DNA of 64,000 nucleotides from Candidatus Dormiibacterota bacterium (GTDB taxonomy: Bacteria; Patescibacteriota; Saccharimonadia; Saccharimonadales; UBA4665), in NCBI GenBank assembly GCA_035534895.1, contig DATLRC010000006.1, positions 11,983 to 75,982 on the forward strand. Direction: 5' to 3'. A program made the translations under genes and the position numbers. Of this stretch, positions 6,660 to 11,503 are shown piece by piece; the stretch's first letter is position 1, and each line of letters begins with the position of its first letter. The notes below the pieces were generated by a model. That model made no database searches. It was not told where the DNA came from and was given only the letters and a program-made list of their open reading frames with translations.

Positions 6660-7190
6660 TTAAGCAATGATATCTGCTCTGGCGTTCAATACATTTGAAA
6701 CGCCTCTTAGATTGCTAGCCATTAAATTGATAAAACTGCTTAAAGGAGCGGCCATTGTGCCGACTAGTATGCCTCTTAGTTGTTCTTTACCTGGTAAACT
6801 TGCTAAAGCCTTGACGTCATCTGAGCTAATGAAGAGACCCTTGTCTGTAATTGCGCCTACAAATTGGAGGCTTGGTTGTGTTTTGGCAAACTGAGCTAAG
6901 GCTTGAGCTGGTGCCACTTCGTCTTCAGAGTTAAATGCATAGATCAGCATTCCTCGGAGAACAGACGAGTCAAAATCCTTAAATTTGTCTATACCCTCTA
7001 ATGCTTTAATAAGCAAGCGATTCTTTACAACCTGCACGTGTGTGCCGTTAGTCCTAGCTTGTTGACGCAAGGATTGCATTGCCTTGACTGACGTTCCTTG
7101 ATAGGTAGCTAATACCGTCATTTTTGATTCAATTAGGTACTTGCTAATCTGACTGACCACGGAGTCTTTTTTAGCTTTGGTTAAGGCCAT
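6660..7190 (-). CDS. rplJ: 50S ribosomal protein uL10
   Basis: 176 aa with L10-like sequence (VVKNRLLIKAL, LPGKEQL). AAGGAG Shine-Dalgarno upstream, and it precedes rplL. Confidence 0.95.
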   Translation of the reverse strand: MALTKAKKDSVVSQISKYLIESKMTVLATYQGTSVKAMQSLRQQARTNGTHVQVVKNRLLIKALEGIDKFKDFDSSVLRGMLIYAFNSEDEVAPAQALAQFAKTQPSLQFVGAITDKGLFISSDDVKALASLPGKEQLRGILVGTMAAPLSSFINLMASNLRGVSNVLNARADIIA

Positions 7191-7215
7191 TACTTATCTC
7201 CTTTCAGGGCTTTAA

Positions 7216-7333
7216 CGAGGTGCGGCTATCGACCATTAAACCGGTCACATATTTTCGTTGTACCAAAAAAGCTTCTCGGTTACCAAGAAGCTTCGTTGTG
7301 TGCTCAAAAACAATAATGAATTATCGCACCTCG
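7216..7333 (-). promoter_or_regulatory. Structured 5' leader of rplJ (candidate L10-leader-type autoregulatory RNA)
   Basis: A 9-bp long-range helix (7216-7224 pairs with 7325-7333) encloses a perfect 8-bp hairpin (7269-7276 pairs with 7286-7293, 9-nt loop). It lies between the predicted promoter and the rplJ Shine-Dalgarno. Confidence 0.45.
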
Positions 7334-7384
7334 GCGACATTATCAAGGCTTTTCGGCCCGTCGCTGTCTTTGGTAACTTAGAAC

Positions 7385-7413
7385 ATATTACTCTGTTAGG
7401 CAGATAAAGTCAA
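7385..7413 (-). promoter_or_regulatory. Candidate sigma70 promoter of rplJ-rplL
   Basis: Minus strand reads TTGACT (7408-7413), a 17-nt spacer, then TAATAT (7385-7390). A small hairpin (7418-7432) sits just upstream, after the stop of the preceding ORF. Confidence 0.5.
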
Positions 7414-7437
7414 ACACACAGCGACCTGCTGTCTTTG

Positions 7438-7866
7438 TCAATAAATTGAGGAACTGCTTGGGTGATGCATTAAGGGTTTTGGTGGAGACTGGGTGATATA
7501 TGGGACGTATGTTGTTGTTTCTGGCGTCACTTTATCTAAGACAATTTGTTGCTCACCAGAGGCACTATTAATAATGGAACTACCGTTTTGATCATTGTCA
7601 GCCGGTTTATTTAACGGTTTGTCCCCTATTGTCAATCCAAAAAGTAGAGGATAGAGTTCAGCGGCTTTTTGGGCGATCATATCACCTTGGCACTCATGGC
7701 CGTCGTAGCAGACTATTTCATCTAATGCCATGTCCCTTACGCGATCGATAGCTGATTGTTGGGTGATTGGTTGGTCACCTTCATAAGATTGATCAGTTGT
7801 TAACTGGCCGTATGATCTGCCAAGATCGTGTTGAGGTCGCCAATTGCGTTCAGGGTTAATAGGCAT
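7438..7866 (-). CDS. Hypothetical protein (142 aa, acidic, Pro/Ser/Gln-rich, C-terminal Tyr)
   Basis: The ORF overlaps the upstream ORF by 11 nt. It has no competing frame and no recognisable motif. Confidence 0.6.
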   Translation of the reverse strand: MPINPERNWRPQHDLGRSYGQLTTDQSYEGDQPITQQSAIDRVRDMALDEIVCYDGHECQGDMIAQKAAELYPLLFGLTIGDKPLNKPADNDQNGSSIINSASGEQQIVLDKVTPETTTYVPYITQSPPKPLMHHPSSSSIY

Positions 7867-8158
7867 CCCAAGACTCCCCCTGGCTTATTGGGTAAAAGCT
7901 ATGACCACCTTCAATCATTTGCTCAGCTTGCTTAAGTGCCAAGTCGGCGATTTTCATTTGCACGTGGCGCGGGACTGAAGTCATGCCGTCTCGACGCAGC
8001 ATTGATGCACTAACCTCAAAGGCTGCTGACTCTAAAGCCATAAGTCTTGACTCGTTCGGTTCTTGATTGCTATCTAGACGCAAGCCCTGTAAATCGAGCA
8101 TTGCTTGGCGCACCCTTGTCATATCGGCCCCTGACTTTTGTCTGGTACTGAATTTCAT
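7856..8158 (-). CDS. Hypothetical protein (100 aa, predicted helical, C-terminal Tyr)
   Basis: Middle ORF of a three-gene same-strand cassette. No recognisable motif. Confidence 0.6.
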   Translation of the reverse strand: MKFSTRQKSGADMTRVRQAMLDLQGLRLDSNQEPNESRLMALESAAFEVSASMLRRDGMTSVPRHVQMKIADLALKQAEQMIEGGHSFYPISQGESWDAY

Positions 8159-8184
8159 TTCCTTGGTTCCTGATAAAATATTTT

Positions 8185-8409
8185 TTAATAATTCTCAGGG
8201 TCACTATTTGAATGTCTGAGGATGCTGGATTCGGGGACCATTCGCCCATCTGTTAAAACTACCATACCGTAACCGGGGACAGTTTCTTTAACTTCAGAGA
8301 CATCATATTGCTCACGATAGGCCGCTTCAGACATAACATTGCGAGCAACCATTAGACTTAAATCACGTTCAGGCATTTTAAAGTTTGGTTTTACTTGTTC
8401 GTGGTTCAT
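8185..8409 (-). CDS. Hypothetical protein (74 aa, C-terminal DPENY)
   Basis: First ORF of the cassette. A GGAG sits 9 nt upstream of the ATG. No recognisable motif. Confidence 0.55.
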   Translation of the reverse strand: MNHEQVKPNFKMPERDLSLMVARNVMSEAAYREQYDVSEVKETVPGYGMVVLTDGRMVPESSILRHSNSDPENY

Positions 8410-8430
8410 CGATATTTACTCCATATTGAT

Positions 8431-8460
8431 TAAATTAAAAAGGACTTCGTTGTTGAAGCC
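8431..8460 (-). terminator. Candidate intrinsic terminator/attenuator hairpin in the leader of the small-ORF cassette
   Basis: Minus-strand RNA reads GGCUUC-AACAAC-GAAG(U)CC, followed by UUUUUAAUUUA. The 5' arm is shared with a competing 10-bp helix (see findings). Confidence 0.35.
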
Positions 8461-8590
8461 TACTTTATTATTTGGACTGCGCTAAGCGCGTTTTATTAGG
8501 TGTAGGTGCGCGAGGCTTCAACTAAACTGAAGCACAGTCCCAAACGGACTAGAATAATGTAGCCAAAAGAGTTGTGCTTAGTATTGAAGC
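8452..8590 (-). promoter_or_regulatory. Attenuator-like leader with mutually exclusive helices
   Basis: A perfect 10-bp inverted repeat (8452-8461 with 8513-8522). A third copy of TTGAAGC lies at 8584-8590. There is also a nested set of GGACT/AGTCC complementary segments (8474-8482, 8532-8540, 8546-8550). Confidence 0.4.
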
Positions 8591-8602
8591 TCATAATTGA
8601 CT

Positions 8603-8630
8603 AGTCTACTCCTTGATGCGTCATTGTCAA
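8603..8630 (-). promoter_or_regulatory. Candidate promoter of the small-ORF cassette
   Basis: Minus strand reads TTGACA (8625-8630), a 16-nt spacer, then TAGACT (8603-8608). This predicts a roughly 185-nt leader. Confidence 0.3.
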
Positions 8631-8649
8631 AAACTTTTACAATAAAATA

Positions 8650-8678
8650 TTGATTTGAGGTTAGCGATAGTGTAGTAT
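8650..8678 (+). promoter_or_regulatory. Candidate promoter of the divergent 146-aa ORF
   Basis: TTGATT (8650-8655), a 17-nt spacer, then TAGTAT (8673-8678), about 32 nt upstream of the ATG at 8711. Confidence 0.3.
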
Positions 8679-8710
8679 TTAATGCGGATTCAGAGACCAA
8701 GAATAAAGAA

Positions 8711-9151
8711 ATGAATATTTTAGAGGCTAATAGAGCTGATCTAGCTCATCAAAACGGATTGTCTGTTTTAGTGGACAAAGACGAAAGTGTTCGTCTAGGT
8801 TATTTAATGGCCGATGCGGTCTATGATAATTTGCATAGTTACCTGCTAGGAGAAAGATCAAACTTTCGAGCTACTTTTGACAGCGCCAATCCGGTACACA
8901 GTTTGGCACAAGAGCGTTTTGCTAAACTGATTGAAACCGACAAACATAGAGTAGATATTCCACTAGGAGACGTTCATGAAGCTTTGGACAGATGGGGTGA
9001 GACTGCTGACATTATCCGACACGAAGAAACACTCATCATGGCTCTGGGATCAGTTAGTCTGCGCGTCAAAAAAAGTAGCATGCCTGATAAACCTGGCAGT
9101 GACGAGCTAGTAACTTACTTCTGTCTTGTCTTGCCTGAGCAGCAGAGTTAG
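8711..9151 (+). CDS. Hypothetical protein (146 aa)
   Basis: Only sizeable ORF in this interval. It is divergent from the small-ORF cassette and has no recognisable motif. Confidence 0.6.
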   Translation: MNILEANRADLAHQNGLSVLVDKDESVRLGYLMADAVYDNLHSYLLGERSNFRATFDSANPVHSLAQERFAKLIETDKHRVDIPLGDVHEALDRWGETADIIRHEETLIMALGSVSLRVKKSSMPDKPGSDELVTYFCLVLPEQQS

Positions 9152-11503
9152 CTAATGCTTAAGCTGTGTTAGCTTGTACTGGGTGTAGCGTTCAGCTGCT
9201 AGACGATTAAGCTTCGGGTCGTCTGCCTTATTGACGAAGCTCATCGCATCAGCTGTTAGTGGGTGTACGGCAGCCACCTTTTCATGCATCTGTAGTACTA
9301 ATTTGCGGTAGCCGGGGTGCCCTTGGGGACTTGTTCGTATCTCGTGGAGGTGGAAAGCTTGGCGTGCGTTGTAGCTGACCTTCCAGCGCATTTTATGCCC
9401 TAAAAGGGTAGCGTATTGGGCTTCCAGGAGGTATCCGGCTGATTGAAGATGGCTATAAAGTTTAAGGCTTAGATCGAAACAGTGTTCAAATTGTTCGCTC
9501 AATCCGGCTTGGTCAATCAACTCTGGAACTTCAAAGCCAAAGCGCGGTGTCAACTCTTGCCACTCTAAATCCTCAACCATGCGGTGTCGCTGGAGGTCGC
9601 GGAATATGCCGTAATCACAAACAATGTCCCAGCTATAGTGAACTTTTTCGAGGGCTCGACCCGGCTTATGGCGTCTATTTAGACGTTCACCGATGTAGGT
9701 CTTAAAGACACCAACCTTTTTCTCGTAGCTCCAGGCATTAACTTGGTTTTGGATTTGTTTGAGAGACAGCGCGCTATGTTCATAGAGCATGTCTGGAATC
9801 AACTCGAGTTCATTTTTGGGCCAGAAATCAACTAGCTCAACCGGGTCGCTTGTGGGCTGGGCGTGGTTAATGGGCAGTTCCTTTGAAGCCAAATGCTTCA
9901 TGGCTTGTTTGGTGTTAGCGCTGTAGGCGATGGTTGCACCGCCTCGCTCAGGTTTGTCAGCTCTCTCGAGAAAGACAGGGATAATCTTGCGCCCTTCAGT
10001 TAATAATGCTTGTCCAGTCAGTCTGGCCTCTGGTAACTCGTCACTCAAGAGATGCATAATAAGACTTTCAAACGCTTGACCTGATGCAAAGATGCCGACA
10101 GTTGATTTGGTGGCAACTGGTAAGATCGGTCGGGCAGCATCACAAGCTTGGGCTCGGGTAGCTCCCAACCAAGCATTGTCTCGTTCTTTTTCAGGCGTCT
10201 GCGAAGCCAGACGAACATGCTCAGTCAGTCGGTGTACAATCTCAGAATATATCTGGAAGATCTGATCCATGATCTGTTCGTATTGCTGCTTAGTTTTTTC
10301 ATCCAGATACGTTGGCGTGAAGTACTTATATTTTCCATTAGCGTCTGTTTGATCAAAGTAAATATAGCGTGTCGACTGTTCGAGATAGGCTGCTAAGCGT
10401 CCCCATTCTAATTTTTTGGTCAGTAGATTAGAGGCGTTTTCAACCACTACATGTATCCCAGCCAGCTGTTGGACAGAGTCGTCGCCGTATGCCGTGATTA
10501 CCCTCTGCAATAAGTTCTCATCCTTGCCTTGGCTGGATGCGAATTCATCTAGCAGCGTAATTCGCATGTCGTCTCCGCGGCGACTGAGTCGTGCCATAGC
10601 CGCAGCGACGGTCAAGGGGTTTATTTTGTCTGTGAAAGCATAGACATTACCGCTGCTATTAGTGACCACTTGGTCAAGGTATTGCTGGCCGGCGGCGGTG
10701 ATTTGATAATGATTGTCTTTCTTTTCCAGCAAAGGCTGCTGGCTTGGTAACGGCACATCTACATCAGGAGTTGGCTTATTGTTAACTGTTGACACGGTAG
10801 TTGTAATGGACAGTTTTTTGTTTTCTATAATTGATTTTAGTGCTTCCGGCTGAGCAACGGCTGCTTTACTTGGATTTCGAACTGCCAGAGTTTGAGCAAT
10901 TAACTGCCAAATTTGGTCGCTGGCTTTTTCAAGGGACTCGGTTGCAAAGACTACAGGTAAGTTTCGTTGCTTAGCTTCCCAAAGGTAACCGGCTCTTACC
11001 CTCTCTAGAAACTGAACATCTAGATCGTCGAAGCGTTCACCTTGCCCTCGCCCCTGAAGTCGCTCTTTAAGTGTTGTTGCTGGAGCATCTAGGATAATAC
11101 ACAGATCGGGCTCGACACCGTTGACTGCAAAGTCGATAATTCGATTAATCATTTCGTAGTCGGGCACATCGCCGCGTCCATAATACTGTATGGCGAGAGT
11201 AGTCAGATAATTCCGATCCACTAGGCAAATTAAACCCTGTTCGACACTGGTTTTAATGACTTGTAATGATTGGGAGCGGGCAGCGTTATAGAGCAGGACC
11301 TCAGTATTGGTGTTCATTGGGAAATGGGGATCCTGAGTCAGTTGACGAATTGCTCTGGCTGTCAGGTCGCTTTGGCTGTCTGGCTCTCTGAATGAACGAA
11401 CCGGCAGTCCAGCCGCACGAAGGCGGCGGGTCATTTCAAGTAACTGGGTTGTTTTACCAACACCTTCAGGGCCTTCCAGGACAATATATTTGCCTCTACT
11501 CAT
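9152..11503 (-). CDS. tmk-thyX: Fusion protein: thymidylate kinase (N-terminal) plus tandem ThyX-type FAD-dependent thymidylate synthase (C-terminal)
   Basis: The N-terminus, KYIVLEGPEGVGKTTQ...DRNYLTTLAIQY, is typical of Tmk. A Pro-rich linker follows. The roughly 520-aa C-terminal part has two ThyX-like halves, with LEQSTRYIYF in the first and LQRHRM in the second. The ATG overlaps the dcd stop by 8 nt. Confidence 0.8.
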   Translation of the reverse strand: MSRGKYIVLEGPEGVGKTTQLLEMTRRLRAAGLPVRSFREPDSQSDLTARAIRQLTQDPHFPMNTNTEVLLYNAARSQSLQVIKTSVEQGLICLVDRNYLTTLAIQYYGRGDVPDYEMINRIIDFAVNGVEPDLCIILDAPATTLKERLQGRGQGERFDDLDVQFLERVRAGYLWEAKQRNLPVVFATESLEKASDQIWQLIAQTLAVRNPSKAAVAQPEALKSIIENKKLSITTTVSTVNNKPTPDVDVPLPSQQPLLEKKDNHYQITAAGQQYLDQVVTNSSGNVYAFTDKINPLTVAAAMARLSRRGDDMRITLLDEFASSQGKDENLLQRVITAYGDDSVQQLAGIHVVVENASNLLTKKLEWGRLAAYLEQSTRYIYFDQTDANGKYKYFTPTYLDEKTKQQYEQIMDQIFQIYSEIVHRLTEHVRLASQTPEKERDNAWLGATRAQACDAARPILPVATKSTVGIFASGQAFESLIMHLLSDELPEARLTGQALLTEGRKIIPVFLERADKPERGGATIAYSANTKQAMKHLASKELPINHAQPTSDPVELVDFWPKNELELIPDMLYEHSALSLKQIQNQVNAWSYEKKVGVFKTYIGERLNRRHKPGRALEKVHYSWDIVCDYGIFRDLQRHRMVEDLEWQELTPRFGFEVPELIDQAGLSEQFEHCFDLSLKLYSHLQSAGYLLEAQYATLLGHKMRWKVSYNARQAFHLHEIRTSPQGHPGYRKLVLQMHEKVAAVHPLTADAMSFVNKADDPKLNRLAAERYTQYKLTQLKH

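What the first reader, a model, noticed from the sequence alone, without database searches (positions are those of the whole stretch)
8431..8630. Attenuator-like leader with two nested sets of mutually exclusive helices
I read the segments below on the minus-strand RNA downstream of a TTGACA-16-TAGACT promoter, in 5' to 3' order.

- A1: GCUUCAA (8584-8590).
- X1: AGUCC (8546-8550).
- X2: GGACUGUGC (8532-8540).
- A2: GUUGAAGCCU (8513-8522).
- X3: GCGCAGUCC (8474-8482).
- A3: AGGCUUCAAC (8452-8461).
- D: GAAG(U)CC, followed by UUUUUAAUUUA.

Possible pairings:
- A2:A3 is a perfect 10-bp helix.
- A1:A2 (7 bp) competes with A2:A3 and encloses an X1:X2 hairpin.
- A3:D forms a terminator-like hairpin followed by a U-tract.
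- X2:X3 can form 9 bp with one G-U pair.

This is the logic of a 1:2 / 2:3 / 3:4 attenuator or riboswitch expression platform. It lies about 30 nt upstream of the first small ORF.

A 32-codon mini-ORF (ATG at 8594, stop at 8496-8498, MSFNTKHNSFGYIILVRLGLCFSLVEASRTYT) starts about where transcription is predicted to begin and runs through A1 and A2. I see no match to a riboswitch class I know.
Basis: partly seen in the sequence, partly recalled or inferred. Interest (0 to 1): 0.6.

Follow-up and report, generated by a model that had tools for sequence, protein, structure and literature searches.

The report
Leucine/isoleucine-sensing leader-peptide attenuator in Saccharibacteria
The stretch is a real, strongly conserved leader RNA of Saccharimonadales bacteria: a tiny gene translated from the first base of the transcript, rich in leucine, isoleucine and valine codons, overlaps competing RNA helices and a terminator, so it most likely turns downstream genes on when these amino acids run short.

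Summary

Folding this one sequence is not significant (z = -1.45). Comparison with relatives is decisive:
- A covariance model built from homologues finds the element in 76 of 151 Saccharimonadales genomes (59 of 121 genera), usually once per genome. It finds none in about 144 other Patescibacteria.
- Rfam 15 has no matching family, and four literature searches found no description.
- In 85 distinct copies the mini-ORF is always open in one frame only. A TTGACA box lies about 36 nt before its ATG and there is no ribosome-binding site, so the transcript is leaderless.
- Codons -7 to -5 are Leu, Ile or Val in 88-99% of copies and lie unpaired inside a long 5' hairpin.
- Helices X2:X3, A2:A3 and the terminator are kept through compensatory changes and G-U pairs.
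- In relatives the leader sits directly upstream of leuA-like, ilvBN and ridA-ilvA genes. The leuA-type leaders carry pure Leu runs.

Best reading: a classical ribosome-mediated branched-chain amino acid attenuator, and a new sequence family.

Unexplained: this genome, and about 70% of carrier genomes, have no such biosynthetic genes. Here the leader precedes three orphan ORFs. No expression data could be obtained.

The parts
8603..8630 (-). Promoter: -35 TTGACA (8625-8630), 16-nt spacer, -10 TAGACT (8603-8608). Eight nt separate the -10 box from the ATG, so the transcript starts at or within about 2 nt of the start codon (leaderless).
   Evidence: 10 of 12 matches. In relatives a TTGAC-like box lies 35-38 nt before the ATG in 53 of 85 copies. 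The commonest -10 to ATG spacing is 7 nt, and an SD-like motif precedes the ATG in only 5 of 85.
8496..8594 (-). Leader peptide mini-ORF, 32 codons: MSFNTKHNSFGYIILVRLGLCFSLVEASRTYT, stop TAA at 8496-8498.
   Evidence: The frame is conserved in 85 of 85 homologues: 78 start with ATG and 7 with GTG, and the stop falls 0-18 nt after A2 in 84 of 85. In the other two frames 0 of 85 have an ATG-started open frame.
8573..8590 (-). Region 1: A1 (GCUUCAAU, 8583-8590) and B1 (UAAGCACA, 8573-8580). This is the 5' strand of the anti-antiterminator and pairs with A2 and with UGUGCUU (8530-8536).
   Evidence: I10, I11; the window's 5' domain folds at -26.1 kcal/mol against -17.9 with a shuffled 5' part, z = -4.3. 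A2 pairs with this region in 71 of 85 homologues.
8547..8558 (-). Control codons Ile13-Ile14-Leu15-Val16 (AUU AUU CUA GUC). They are unpaired in the internal loop of the 5' hairpin. Further Leu codons lie at 8541-8543 and 8535-8537.
   Evidence: the equivalent codons -7, -6 and -5 are Leu, Ile or Val in 88%, 95% and 99% of 85 copies. Over codons -10 to -6 the same bases read in the other frames give 17% and 5%, against 62% in the true frame. The folds printed, including the window's, leave the run in the unpaired loop.
8531..8550 (-). X1 (AGUCC, 8546-8550) and X2 (GGACUGUGCU, 8531-8540). X1:X2 forms the apical hairpin of the 5' domain. X2 also pairs with X3.
   Evidence: X1:X2 is 89.8% paired in 87 sequences. 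X2:X3 is 98.7% paired, with compensatory changes at two positions.
8513..8522 (-). A2 (GUUGAAGCCU), region 2. It pairs alternatively with A1, with the neighbouring GCUUCA, or with A3.
   Evidence: It is invariant in nearly all copies.
8484..8512 (-). Variable hairpin region (Pvar) that contains the stop codon of the mini-ORF.
   Evidence: It folds into a hairpin of at least 4 bp in 84 of 85 copies, with unrelated sequences.
8474..8483 (-). X3 (AGCGCAGUCC), which pairs with X2.
8462..8473 (-). A/C-rich single-stranded linker between X3 and A3.
   Evidence: 55% A, 24% C and 10% G across copies, median 8 nt.
8431..8461 (-). A3 (AGGCUUCAAC, 8452-8461), D (GAAGUCC, 8442-8448) and the U-tract (8431-8441). 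Together they form the intrinsic terminator. A3 is also the 3' strand of the antiterminator.
   Evidence: The terminator base is 93.5% paired, with 87 cells changed on both sides across this base and the X1:X2 helix counted together. GGCUUCAAC stays conserved even where part of it is the terminator loop.
7438..8422 (-). Regulated genes in this genome: SD GGAG (8419-8422), then ORFs of 74 aa (8185-8409), 100 aa (7856-8158) and 142 aa (7438-7866). All three are orphans.
   Evidence: No family was found in Pfam, NCBIfam or PHROGs. The 74-aa ORF has no homologue in 60 relatives. The 142-aa ORF matches only itself among 5.8 billion proteins.

Best explanation
This is a ribosome-mediated transcription attenuator that senses the supply of charged Leu, Ile and Val tRNAs.

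**Proposed mechanism (all steps inferred, none shown)**
1. Transcription starts at, or within about 2 nt of, the AUG of a 32-codon leader ORF.
2. With no ribosome on the RNA, the 5' half folds into one long hairpin (A1/B1 with B2/A2, and X1:X2 at the tip). This hairpin locks up A2, so A3 pairs with D and RNA polymerase terminates at the U-tract.
3. If a ribosome translates smoothly to the stop codon just after A2, it covers A2. The terminator forms again.
4. If the ribosome stalls on the Ile-Ile-Leu-Val run in the unpaired loop of that hairpin, it covers B1 and X1 and leaves X2 and A2 free. X3 then pairs with X2, which also undoes the small local hairpin that could hide A2. A3 pairs with A2 before D is made. 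The terminator cannot form, and polymerase reads into the downstream genes.

**Shown here**
- The sequence elements exist and are conserved.
- The helices covary.
- The ORF and its codon bias are conserved.
- The element is linked to branched-chain amino acid genes in relatives.

**Inferred, not shown**
- Stalling at the control codons.
- The timing of the steps.
- Whether X2:X3 and A2:A3 coexist as a pseudoknot.
- What the three orphan ORFs controlled in this genome do.
For: **Conservation and distribution**
- Only the leader (8414-8543) is conserved at the DNA level across genera.
- Covariance model R1 hits 76 of 151 genomes of the order, and none of about 144 other genomes of the phylum.

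**The ORF is under selection**
- One frame has an ATG-started open frame in 77 of 85 copies, and 7 more start with GTG. The other frames have 0 of 85.
- The promoter geometry is leaderless, and no SD precedes the ATG.
- The stop codon lies 0-18 nt after A2.

**Control codons**
- Leu, Ile or Val occupy codons -7, -6 and -5 in 88%, 95% and 99% of copies. They use unrelated codons (CUC or AUU), and in the printed folds they lie in the unpaired loop.
- Leaders of leuA-like genes carry pure Leu runs: 0 of 8 have two or more Ile/Val. Among ilvA and ilvBN leaders 12 of 18 do (Fisher p = 0.002, not corrected for relatedness).

**Structures**
- X2:X3 is 98.7% paired, with UA-to-CG and GC-to-AU or CG changes.
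- A2:A3 is 94.1% paired; one pair is GC in 75, GU in 7 and AU in 4 sequences.
- The terminator base is 93.5% paired; it and X1:X2 together show 87 cells changed on both sides.
- In the 5' domain, A2 pairs with the N-terminal coding region in 71 of 85 copies, mean z = -2.2.
- The A2:A3 duplex (median -19.5 kcal/mol) is stronger than the terminator (-12.9) in 82 of 85 copies.

**Gene association**
- IlvA, a Rid-family protein, IlvB and IlvN were identified with NCBIfam.
- 13 of 16 HMGL-like (leuA/cimA-type) genes in the order sample have the leader within about 250 nt upstream.
- 10 of 20 ilvA genes have it within 3 kb upstream on the same strand.

**Precedent**
- The Corynebacterium glutamicum ilvBNC attenuator also uses a leaderless Ile/Val/Leu leader peptide and three hairpins (PMC11857589).
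Against: - No transcript or 3'-end data exist for this element.
- Nested MFE folding with a masked, stalled ribosome still predicts the terminator in most copies. X2:X3 plus the terminator beats A2:A3 unless the two helices coexist as a pseudoknot or kinetics decide.
- The helices are far more invariant than in classical attenuators. This could instead reflect a bound factor.
- This genome has no ilvA, ridA, leuA, ilvB or ilvN.
- 54 of 76 leader-bearing genomes have neither ilvA nor a leuA-like gene, so the usual feedback logic does not explain why the leader is retained.
- The link between codon type and gene type rests on 26 related loci.
Confidence: 0.72

Rival explanations
1. The element is a riboswitch or a factor-dependent attenuator. 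A metabolite, tRNA or protein binds the X2:X3, variable-hairpin and A2 junction and decides between A2:A3 and the terminator. On this reading the mini-ORF is a by-product of RNA constraints.
For: - About 27 nt of the core are nearly invariant across an order, which is unusual for leader-peptide attenuators.
- A conserved extra helix X2:X3 and an A-rich linker suggest a compact tertiary fold.
- Nested folding does not reproduce ribosome-driven switching.
Against: - An incidental ORF would not keep a start codon at the transcription start, a stop right after A2, and Leu/Ile/Val codons in an unpaired loop in 85 of 85 copies.
- The Leu or Ile content of the peptide tracks the downstream gene type.
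- No Rfam family, T-box included, matches at E <= 10.
- The invariance can be explained without a ligand: each segment must pair with two or three partners.
Confidence: 0.12
2. The element is mainly a small gene in its own right. Either the roughly 160-nt terminated transcript acts in trans as a small RNA, or the hydrophobic 24-35-aa peptide is a functional micro-protein. Attenuation of downstream genes is then secondary or lost. This would explain why the element is kept in genomes without branched-chain amino acid genes.
For: - 54 of 76 carrier genomes lack ilvA and leuA-like genes, yet the leader remains under strong purifying selection.
- The genes downstream are poorly conserved orphans.
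- The peptide C-terminus GLCFSMVEA is nearly invariant.
- There is precedent: the Sinorhizobium trp attenuator RNA and its leader peptide act in trans (abstracts of PMC6614838 and PMC7298713).
Against: - The conserved peptide residues are all encoded by bases that are also constrained by pairing, so selection at the peptide level is not separable.
- A strong SD and a start codon follow the terminator by 15-25 nt in 74 of 85 copies, as expected for a regulated gene.
- No trans target was sought or found.
Confidence: 0.1
3. The inverted repeats are DNA operator sites for a regulator in a divergent promoter region, or they are chance repeats.
For: - In this window a 146-aa ORF is transcribed divergently from 8711, and the promoters overlap.
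- The fold z-score of the single sequence is weak.
Against: - The divergent ORF has no counterpart upstream of any other copy. In most loci tmk-thyX ends upstream on the same strand, 34-100 nt from the leader ATG in about a dozen of them.
- G-U pairs are frequent (28 and 19 sequences at two X2:X3 positions). They would be A-C mismatches on the other strand.
- Compensatory changes keep RNA pairs, not DNA palindromes.
Confidence: 0.02

Closest known systems
Corynebacterium glutamicum ilvBNC attenuator (leader peptide IlvL)
   Same: - The leader peptide starts one nucleotide from the transcription start, so it is leaderless.
- Ile, Val and Leu control codons are present.
- There are three competing hairpins: anti-antiterminator, antiterminator and terminator.
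- It controls acetohydroxyacid synthase genes (PMC11857589).
   Different: - The Corynebacterium peptide has 15 residues; this family has 23-35.
- Sequence relatedness was not tested.
- The element here has an extra conserved helix (X2:X3) that crosses the antiterminator.
- It is invariant across a whole order.
- In most genomes it precedes orphan small ORFs, not ilv genes.
Enterobacterial leu, ilvGMEDA and ilvBN leader-peptide attenuators (Rfam Leu_leader and relatives)
   Same: - The logic is 1:2 / 2:3 / 3:4.
- There are runs of the cognate codons: Leu for leu, and mixed Ile/Val/Leu for ilv. This is from established knowledge of these operons.
- An intrinsic terminator precedes the first structural gene.
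   Different: - Those leaders have a 5' UTR with a ribosome-binding site.
- Neither the window nor four homologous loci match any Rfam leader family.
- In this family the leader ORF spans region 2 completely and ends inside a variable hairpin.
Sinorhizobium meliloti trpL attenuator (rnTrpL and peTrpL)
   Same: It is a leader-peptide attenuator whose terminated RNA and peptide have functions of their own (abstracts of PMC6614838 and PMC7298713). This offers a possible model for why the element is kept where biosynthetic genes are absent.
   Different: - It senses a different amino acid and has no sequence similarity.
- No trans function has been shown here.

Membership tests
Ribosome-mediated (leader-peptide) transcription attenuators of amino-acid operons | A short translated ORF lies inside the leader transcript, upstream of the structural genes. 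| tested here: met
   32 codons at 8594-8496. The frame is conserved in 85 of 85 homologues, against 0 of 85 in the other frames. Translation itself was not observed.
Ribosome-mediated (leader-peptide) transcription attenuators of amino-acid operons | Codons for the sensed amino acid(s) are clustered in the leader ORF. | tested here: met
   Ile-Ile-Leu-Val lies at 8547-8558. Across the family, codons -7 to -5 are Leu, Ile or Val in 88-99% of copies. Leu-only runs precede leuA-like genes.
Ribosome-mediated (leader-peptide) transcription attenuators of amino-acid operons | An intrinsic terminator precedes the first structural gene, and an antiterminator shares one of its strands. | tested here: met
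   The terminator is at 8431-8461 and its base pairs covary. A2:A3 is a perfect 10 bp here and 94% paired across the family.
Ribosome-mediated (leader-peptide) transcription attenuators of amino-acid operons | An anti-antiterminator (1:2) has its 5' strand inside the leader ORF. | tested here: met
   A1/B1 pair with B2/A2. The window's z-score is -4.3, and this pairing is in the MFE of 71 of 85 copies.
Ribosome-mediated (leader-peptide) transcription attenuators of amino-acid operons | The element lies upstream of genes for making the sensed amino acid. | tested here: inconclusive
   Met in relatives: ridA-ilvA, ilvBN and leuA-like genes follow the leader. Not met in this genome, which has none of these genes. 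Neither ilvA nor a leuA-like gene is found in 54 of 76 carrier genomes.
Ribosome-mediated (leader-peptide) transcription attenuators of amino-acid operons | Premature termination is relieved by starvation for the amino acid. | not testable with these tools
No experiment was possible.
Rfam leader, riboswitch and T-box families | A match to a curated covariance model. | tested here: not met
   No match at E <= 10 in window 8400-8700. In four homologous loci the only overlap is a chance-level sub-threshold hit: Atu_C8, 27.7 bits against a gathering score of 50.
tRNA or tRNA-like element | A cloverleaf recognised by ARAGORN. | tested here: not met
   No tRNA or tmRNA in 7000-10000.
Corynebacterium ilvBNC attenuator family | Sequence or structure homology to the actinobacterial leader. 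| not tested
   Only the design was compared, from PMC11857589. No alignment was made.

The most novel reading that the evidence does not exclude
In most Saccharimonadales, including this genome, the element is no longer a feedback control of amino-acid synthesis. These are epibionts that cannot make Leu or Ile. In them the leader would serve as a dedicated starvation sensor, reading tRNA charging through a leaderless peptide and a pseudoknotted antiterminator. It would switch on fast-evolving, lineage-specific small proteins, and in some genomes an M20 peptidase, that act in obtaining nutrients from the host. Alternatively, the short terminated RNA or the peptide could itself act in trans.
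Probability: 0.3. Interest if true: 0.75.

Novelty: new member of a known kind. Interest (0 to 1): 0.6.

Why it matters
**What would be new**
- Saccharibacteria and other candidate-phyla-radiation bacteria are known mostly from genomes. In the library and Rfam searches done here, no leader-peptide attenuator had been described for them.
- This element offers a defined regulatory RNA family present in about half of the sampled Saccharimonadales. It is usable directly as a covariance model for annotation.

**What it says about these organisms**
- It shows that some members keep regulated pieces of branched-chain amino acid metabolism: ilvA-ridA, ilvBN and leuA-like genes.
- It marks a conserved genomic slot, between tmk-thyX and rplJ, whose cargo turns over.

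**What it would make testable**
- If the sensor works as proposed, it gives a handle on how obligate epibionts perceive amino-acid supply from their hosts.
- It also points to a set of orphan small proteins that are candidates for a starvation response.

Tried and rejected
- **Rfam.** Scans of the window and of four homologous loci gave nothing relevant.
- **tRNA-like reading.** I considered reading GGACUGUGCUUCAGUUUAGUUGAAGC as a tRNA-like element. ARAGORN finds no tRNA, and the ORF and terminator explain the conservation.
- **Stand-alone small RNA such as SRP or 6S.** Dropped once the conserved ORF, the downstream SD and start, and the gene association were seen.
- **Single-sequence fold statistics.** Not informative.
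- **Nested MFE folding with a masked ribosome at every codon.** This did not reproduce the proposed switch. The terminator is predicted in at least 64 of 85 copies at every position, and A2:A3 in at most 20 of 85 when X2 is masked. The method cannot model pseudoknots or the order of transcription, so I treat it as a limitation and list it as evidence against.
- **Orphan ORFs as remnants of ilv or leu genes.** blastx at E <= 10 found nothing.
- **Families for the three ORFs and the divergent 146-aa ORF.** None in Pfam, NCBIfam (the three ORFs only) or PHROGs. A search of 5.8 billion proteins with the 142-aa ORF found only itself.
- **Second copy in this genome.** None found.

Full report
**1. 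The observation**

- The promoter TTGACA-16-TAGACT is at 8630-8603.
- The ATG is at 8594 and the stop at 8498-8496.
- The segments A1, X1, X2, A2, X3, A3 and D are all present, followed by a U-tract at 8431-8441.
- A2:A3 is a perfect 10-bp complement, A1:A2 is 7 bp, and X2:X3 is 13 nt at 85%.
- A3:D is reported as a terminator-like site.

On this one sequence the fold is not better than chance: -44.2 kcal/mol, z = -1.45. Rfam 15 has nothing here at E <= 10. The only nearby hit is the L10 leader at 7256-7391. ARAGORN finds no tRNA.

**2. Conservation**

The window comes from an 865-kb, 23-contig genome. A blastn of 8100-8800 against 60 relatives matched only 8414-8543, which is the leader, in nine other genomes of different genera and families. 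Two further short, weak hits in a tenth genome fell outside it. The 74-aa ORF downstream has no homologue in any of them.

A pattern scan of one genome per species returned about 60 complete copies. Most records are titled Candidatus Saccharimonadales or Saccharibacteria. The hits in proteobacteria and other groups lie inside GC-rich coding DNA and lack the rest of the element.

A covariance model (R1) built from 48 copies gave this distribution:
- It finds the element in 76 of 151 genomes sampled across the order (59 of 121 genera), mostly once per genome.
- In a phylum-wide sample of 151 genomes it finds only this genome and one other member of the same order.
- This genome has a single copy.

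**3. The mini-ORF is real and leaderless**

- In 85 distinct copies, one frame has an ATG-started open frame running through A2 in 77, and a GTG start in 7 more. The other two frames have 0 of 85.
- Peptides are 23-35 residues. The stop lies 0-18 nt after A2 in 84 of 85.
- A TTGAC-like box sits 35-38 nt before the ATG in 53 of 85. The commonest -10 to ATG spacing is 7 nt. Only 5 of 85 have an SD-like motif before the ATG.
- In the window the spacing is 8 nt. Transcription therefore starts at, or within about 2 nt of, the start codon.

**4. Control codons**

- Counting from the invariant CUG codon, positions -7, -6 and -5 are Leu, Ile or Val in 88%, 95% and 99% of copies.
- These positions use unrelated codons, mainly CUC or AUU. 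Over codons -10 to -6 the same bases read in the other frames give 17% and 5% Leu/Ile/Val, against 62% in the true frame.
- In the window the run is Ile13-Ile14-Leu15-Val16 (8547-8558).
- In the folded 5' domains printed, including the window's, the run lies in the unpaired internal loop.

**5. RNA structure**

- *5' domain.* The region from the ATG to A2 folds as one long hairpin: A1:A2 at the base, B1:B2 in the middle and X1:X2 at the tip. A2 pairs with the N-terminal coding region in 71 of 85 copies. Native energies are on average 2.2 sd below those with a shuffled 5' part. The window's z-score is -4.3.
- *X2:X3.* RNAalifold finds X2:X3 with no broken cell in 48 sequences. Across 87 distinct sequences it is 98.7% paired, with UA-to-CG and GC-to-AU or CG changes and many G-U pairs.
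- *A2:A3.* This helix was not part of the model. It is 94.1% paired. At one pair all four sequences with A have U opposite (GC 75, GU 7, AU 4).
- *Terminator.* The base of the stem is 93.5% paired. In the same count X1:X2 is 89.8% paired, and the two helices together show 87 cells changed on both sides.
- *A3 sequence.* GGCUUCAAC stays conserved even in copies where part of it forms the terminator loop. That argues it is kept for pairing with A2.
- *Variable hairpin.* The hairpin between A2 and X3 forms in 84 of 85 copies from unrelated sequences.
- *Energies.* Median values in kcal/mol are: 5' domain -23.4, X2:X3 -20.2, A2:A3 -19.5, terminator -12.9.

X2:X3 and A2:A3 cross each other. They are therefore either a pseudoknot or competitors. 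The loop lengths would allow a pseudoknot: 7 nt on one side, and a median of 8 nt (55% A) up to the terminator-stem base on the other. This is inference.

Nested folding with a masked ribosome does not reproduce the switch. I count that against the simple model.

The unusual invariance of the helices has a plain explanation. Each segment must pair with two or three different partners.

**6. What it controls**

The locus is syntenic across the order: tmk-thyX, then the leader, then cargo, then the L10 leader and rplJ-rplL.
- thyX lies upstream on the same strand in 68 of 85 loci, and in about a dozen it ends only 34-100 nt from the leader ATG.
- The divergent 146-aa ORF of this window occurs nowhere else.

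Downstream of the 85 leaders I find the following:
- A leuA-like gene directly after the terminator in 8 loci.
- ilvB-ilvN-ridA-ilvA in 5 loci.
- ridA and/or ilvA after one or two small ORFs in 13 loci.
- An M20 peptidase in several of the loci that carry no ilv or leuA-like gene (confirmed by Pfam).
- Otherwise only small, mostly unrelated ORFs before rplJ (41 loci, including this window).

NCBIfam names biosynthetic IlvA, IlvB and IlvN above their cut-offs, and a Rid-family protein just below its cut-off. The leuA-like proteins fall in the isopropylmalate/citramalate synthase family but below the cut-offs.

In the order sample:
- 13 of 16 HMGL-like genes have the leader within about 250 nt upstream.
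- 10 of 20 ilvA genes have it within 3 kb upstream on the same strand.

Leaders of leuA-like genes carry pure Leu runs: 0 of 8 have two or more Ile/Val. Among ilv leaders 12 of 18 do (p = 0.002, uncorrected for relatedness). An SD and a start codon follow the terminator by 15-25 nt in 74 of 85 copies.

**7. This genome**

- It has no ilvA, ridA, leuA, ilvB or ilvN.
- The leader looks intact, and precedes ORFs of 74, 100 and 142 aa. None has a family in any library, and none resembles the ilv or leu genes.
- The 142-aa protein matches only itself among 5.8 billion proteins.
- In a genome of the same genus and another of the same family, the whole block 7438-9151 is missing and thyX abuts the L10 leader.
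- Of 76 genomes with the leader, 54 have neither ilvA nor a leuA-like gene. Why the leader is kept there is unexplained.

**8. Comparison with known systems**

- The design is that of classical leader-peptide attenuators.
- The closest described case is the Corynebacterium glutamicum ilvBNC attenuator. It has a leaderless Ile/Val/Leu peptide and three hairpins (PMC11857589).
- I found no description of such an element in Saccharibacteria or Patescibacteria.
- In the 2017 survey of 224 candidate structured RNAs, the only motif named for this group that my term search turned up is lysM-TM7.

**9. Verdict**

I file the element as a new sequence family of a known kind of regulator. Two open points remain:
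- The role of X2:X3.
- The function of the leader in genomes without branched-chain amino acid synthesis.

Noticed in passing
window 7256-7391 (-): A ribosomal protein L10 leader (Rfam RF00557, 60.2 bits against a gathering score of 44) lies upstream of rplJ. A promoter-like site TTGACT-17-TAATAT sits at 7413-7385.
   Followed up: partly
window 7438-9151: The whole block is absent from a genome of the same genus (L167) and from one of the same family (L168). The block holds the divergent 146-aa ORF, the leader and the three orphan ORFs. In those two genomes tmk-thyX directly abuts the L10 leader. The slot between thyX and rplJ therefore holds variable cargo across the order.
   Followed up: partly
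window 7438-8409 (-): The three orphan ORFs (74, 100 and 142 aa) all end in Tyr (...PENY, ...WDAY, ...SSIY). The 142-aa protein has no relative among 5.8 billion proteins.
   Followed up: partly
L027 2779-3327 (-); also L018 and L035 on one contig; G087, G089, G091: Some genomes carry two copies of the leader. In L027 two copies sit 441 nt apart in tandem upstream of ilvBN. One has a Gly/Ser/Thr/Leu peptide and the other an Ile/Val-rich peptide, which suggests two-input control.
   Followed up: no
Loci L018, L085, L113: ridA-ilvA is followed by threonine 3-dehydrogenase-like and 2-amino-3-ketobutyrate CoA ligase-like genes. Several Saccharimonadales have only fragments of the branched-chain pathway (ilvA and ridA alone, or a short leuA-like gene alone). 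The role of these enzymes may therefore not be ordinary biosynthesis.
   Followed up: no
L021, L023, L059, L060, L117, L132: An M20-family peptidase gene, in one case a 1028-aa protein, lies between the leader and rplJ. This would fit a response to amino-acid shortage.
   Followed up: partly
window 9152-11503 (-): The tmk-thyX fusion (thymidylate kinase plus a Thy1 domain, 783 aa) is conserved at full length in many Saccharimonadales, at 50-75% identity, immediately upstream of the leader.
   Followed up: partly
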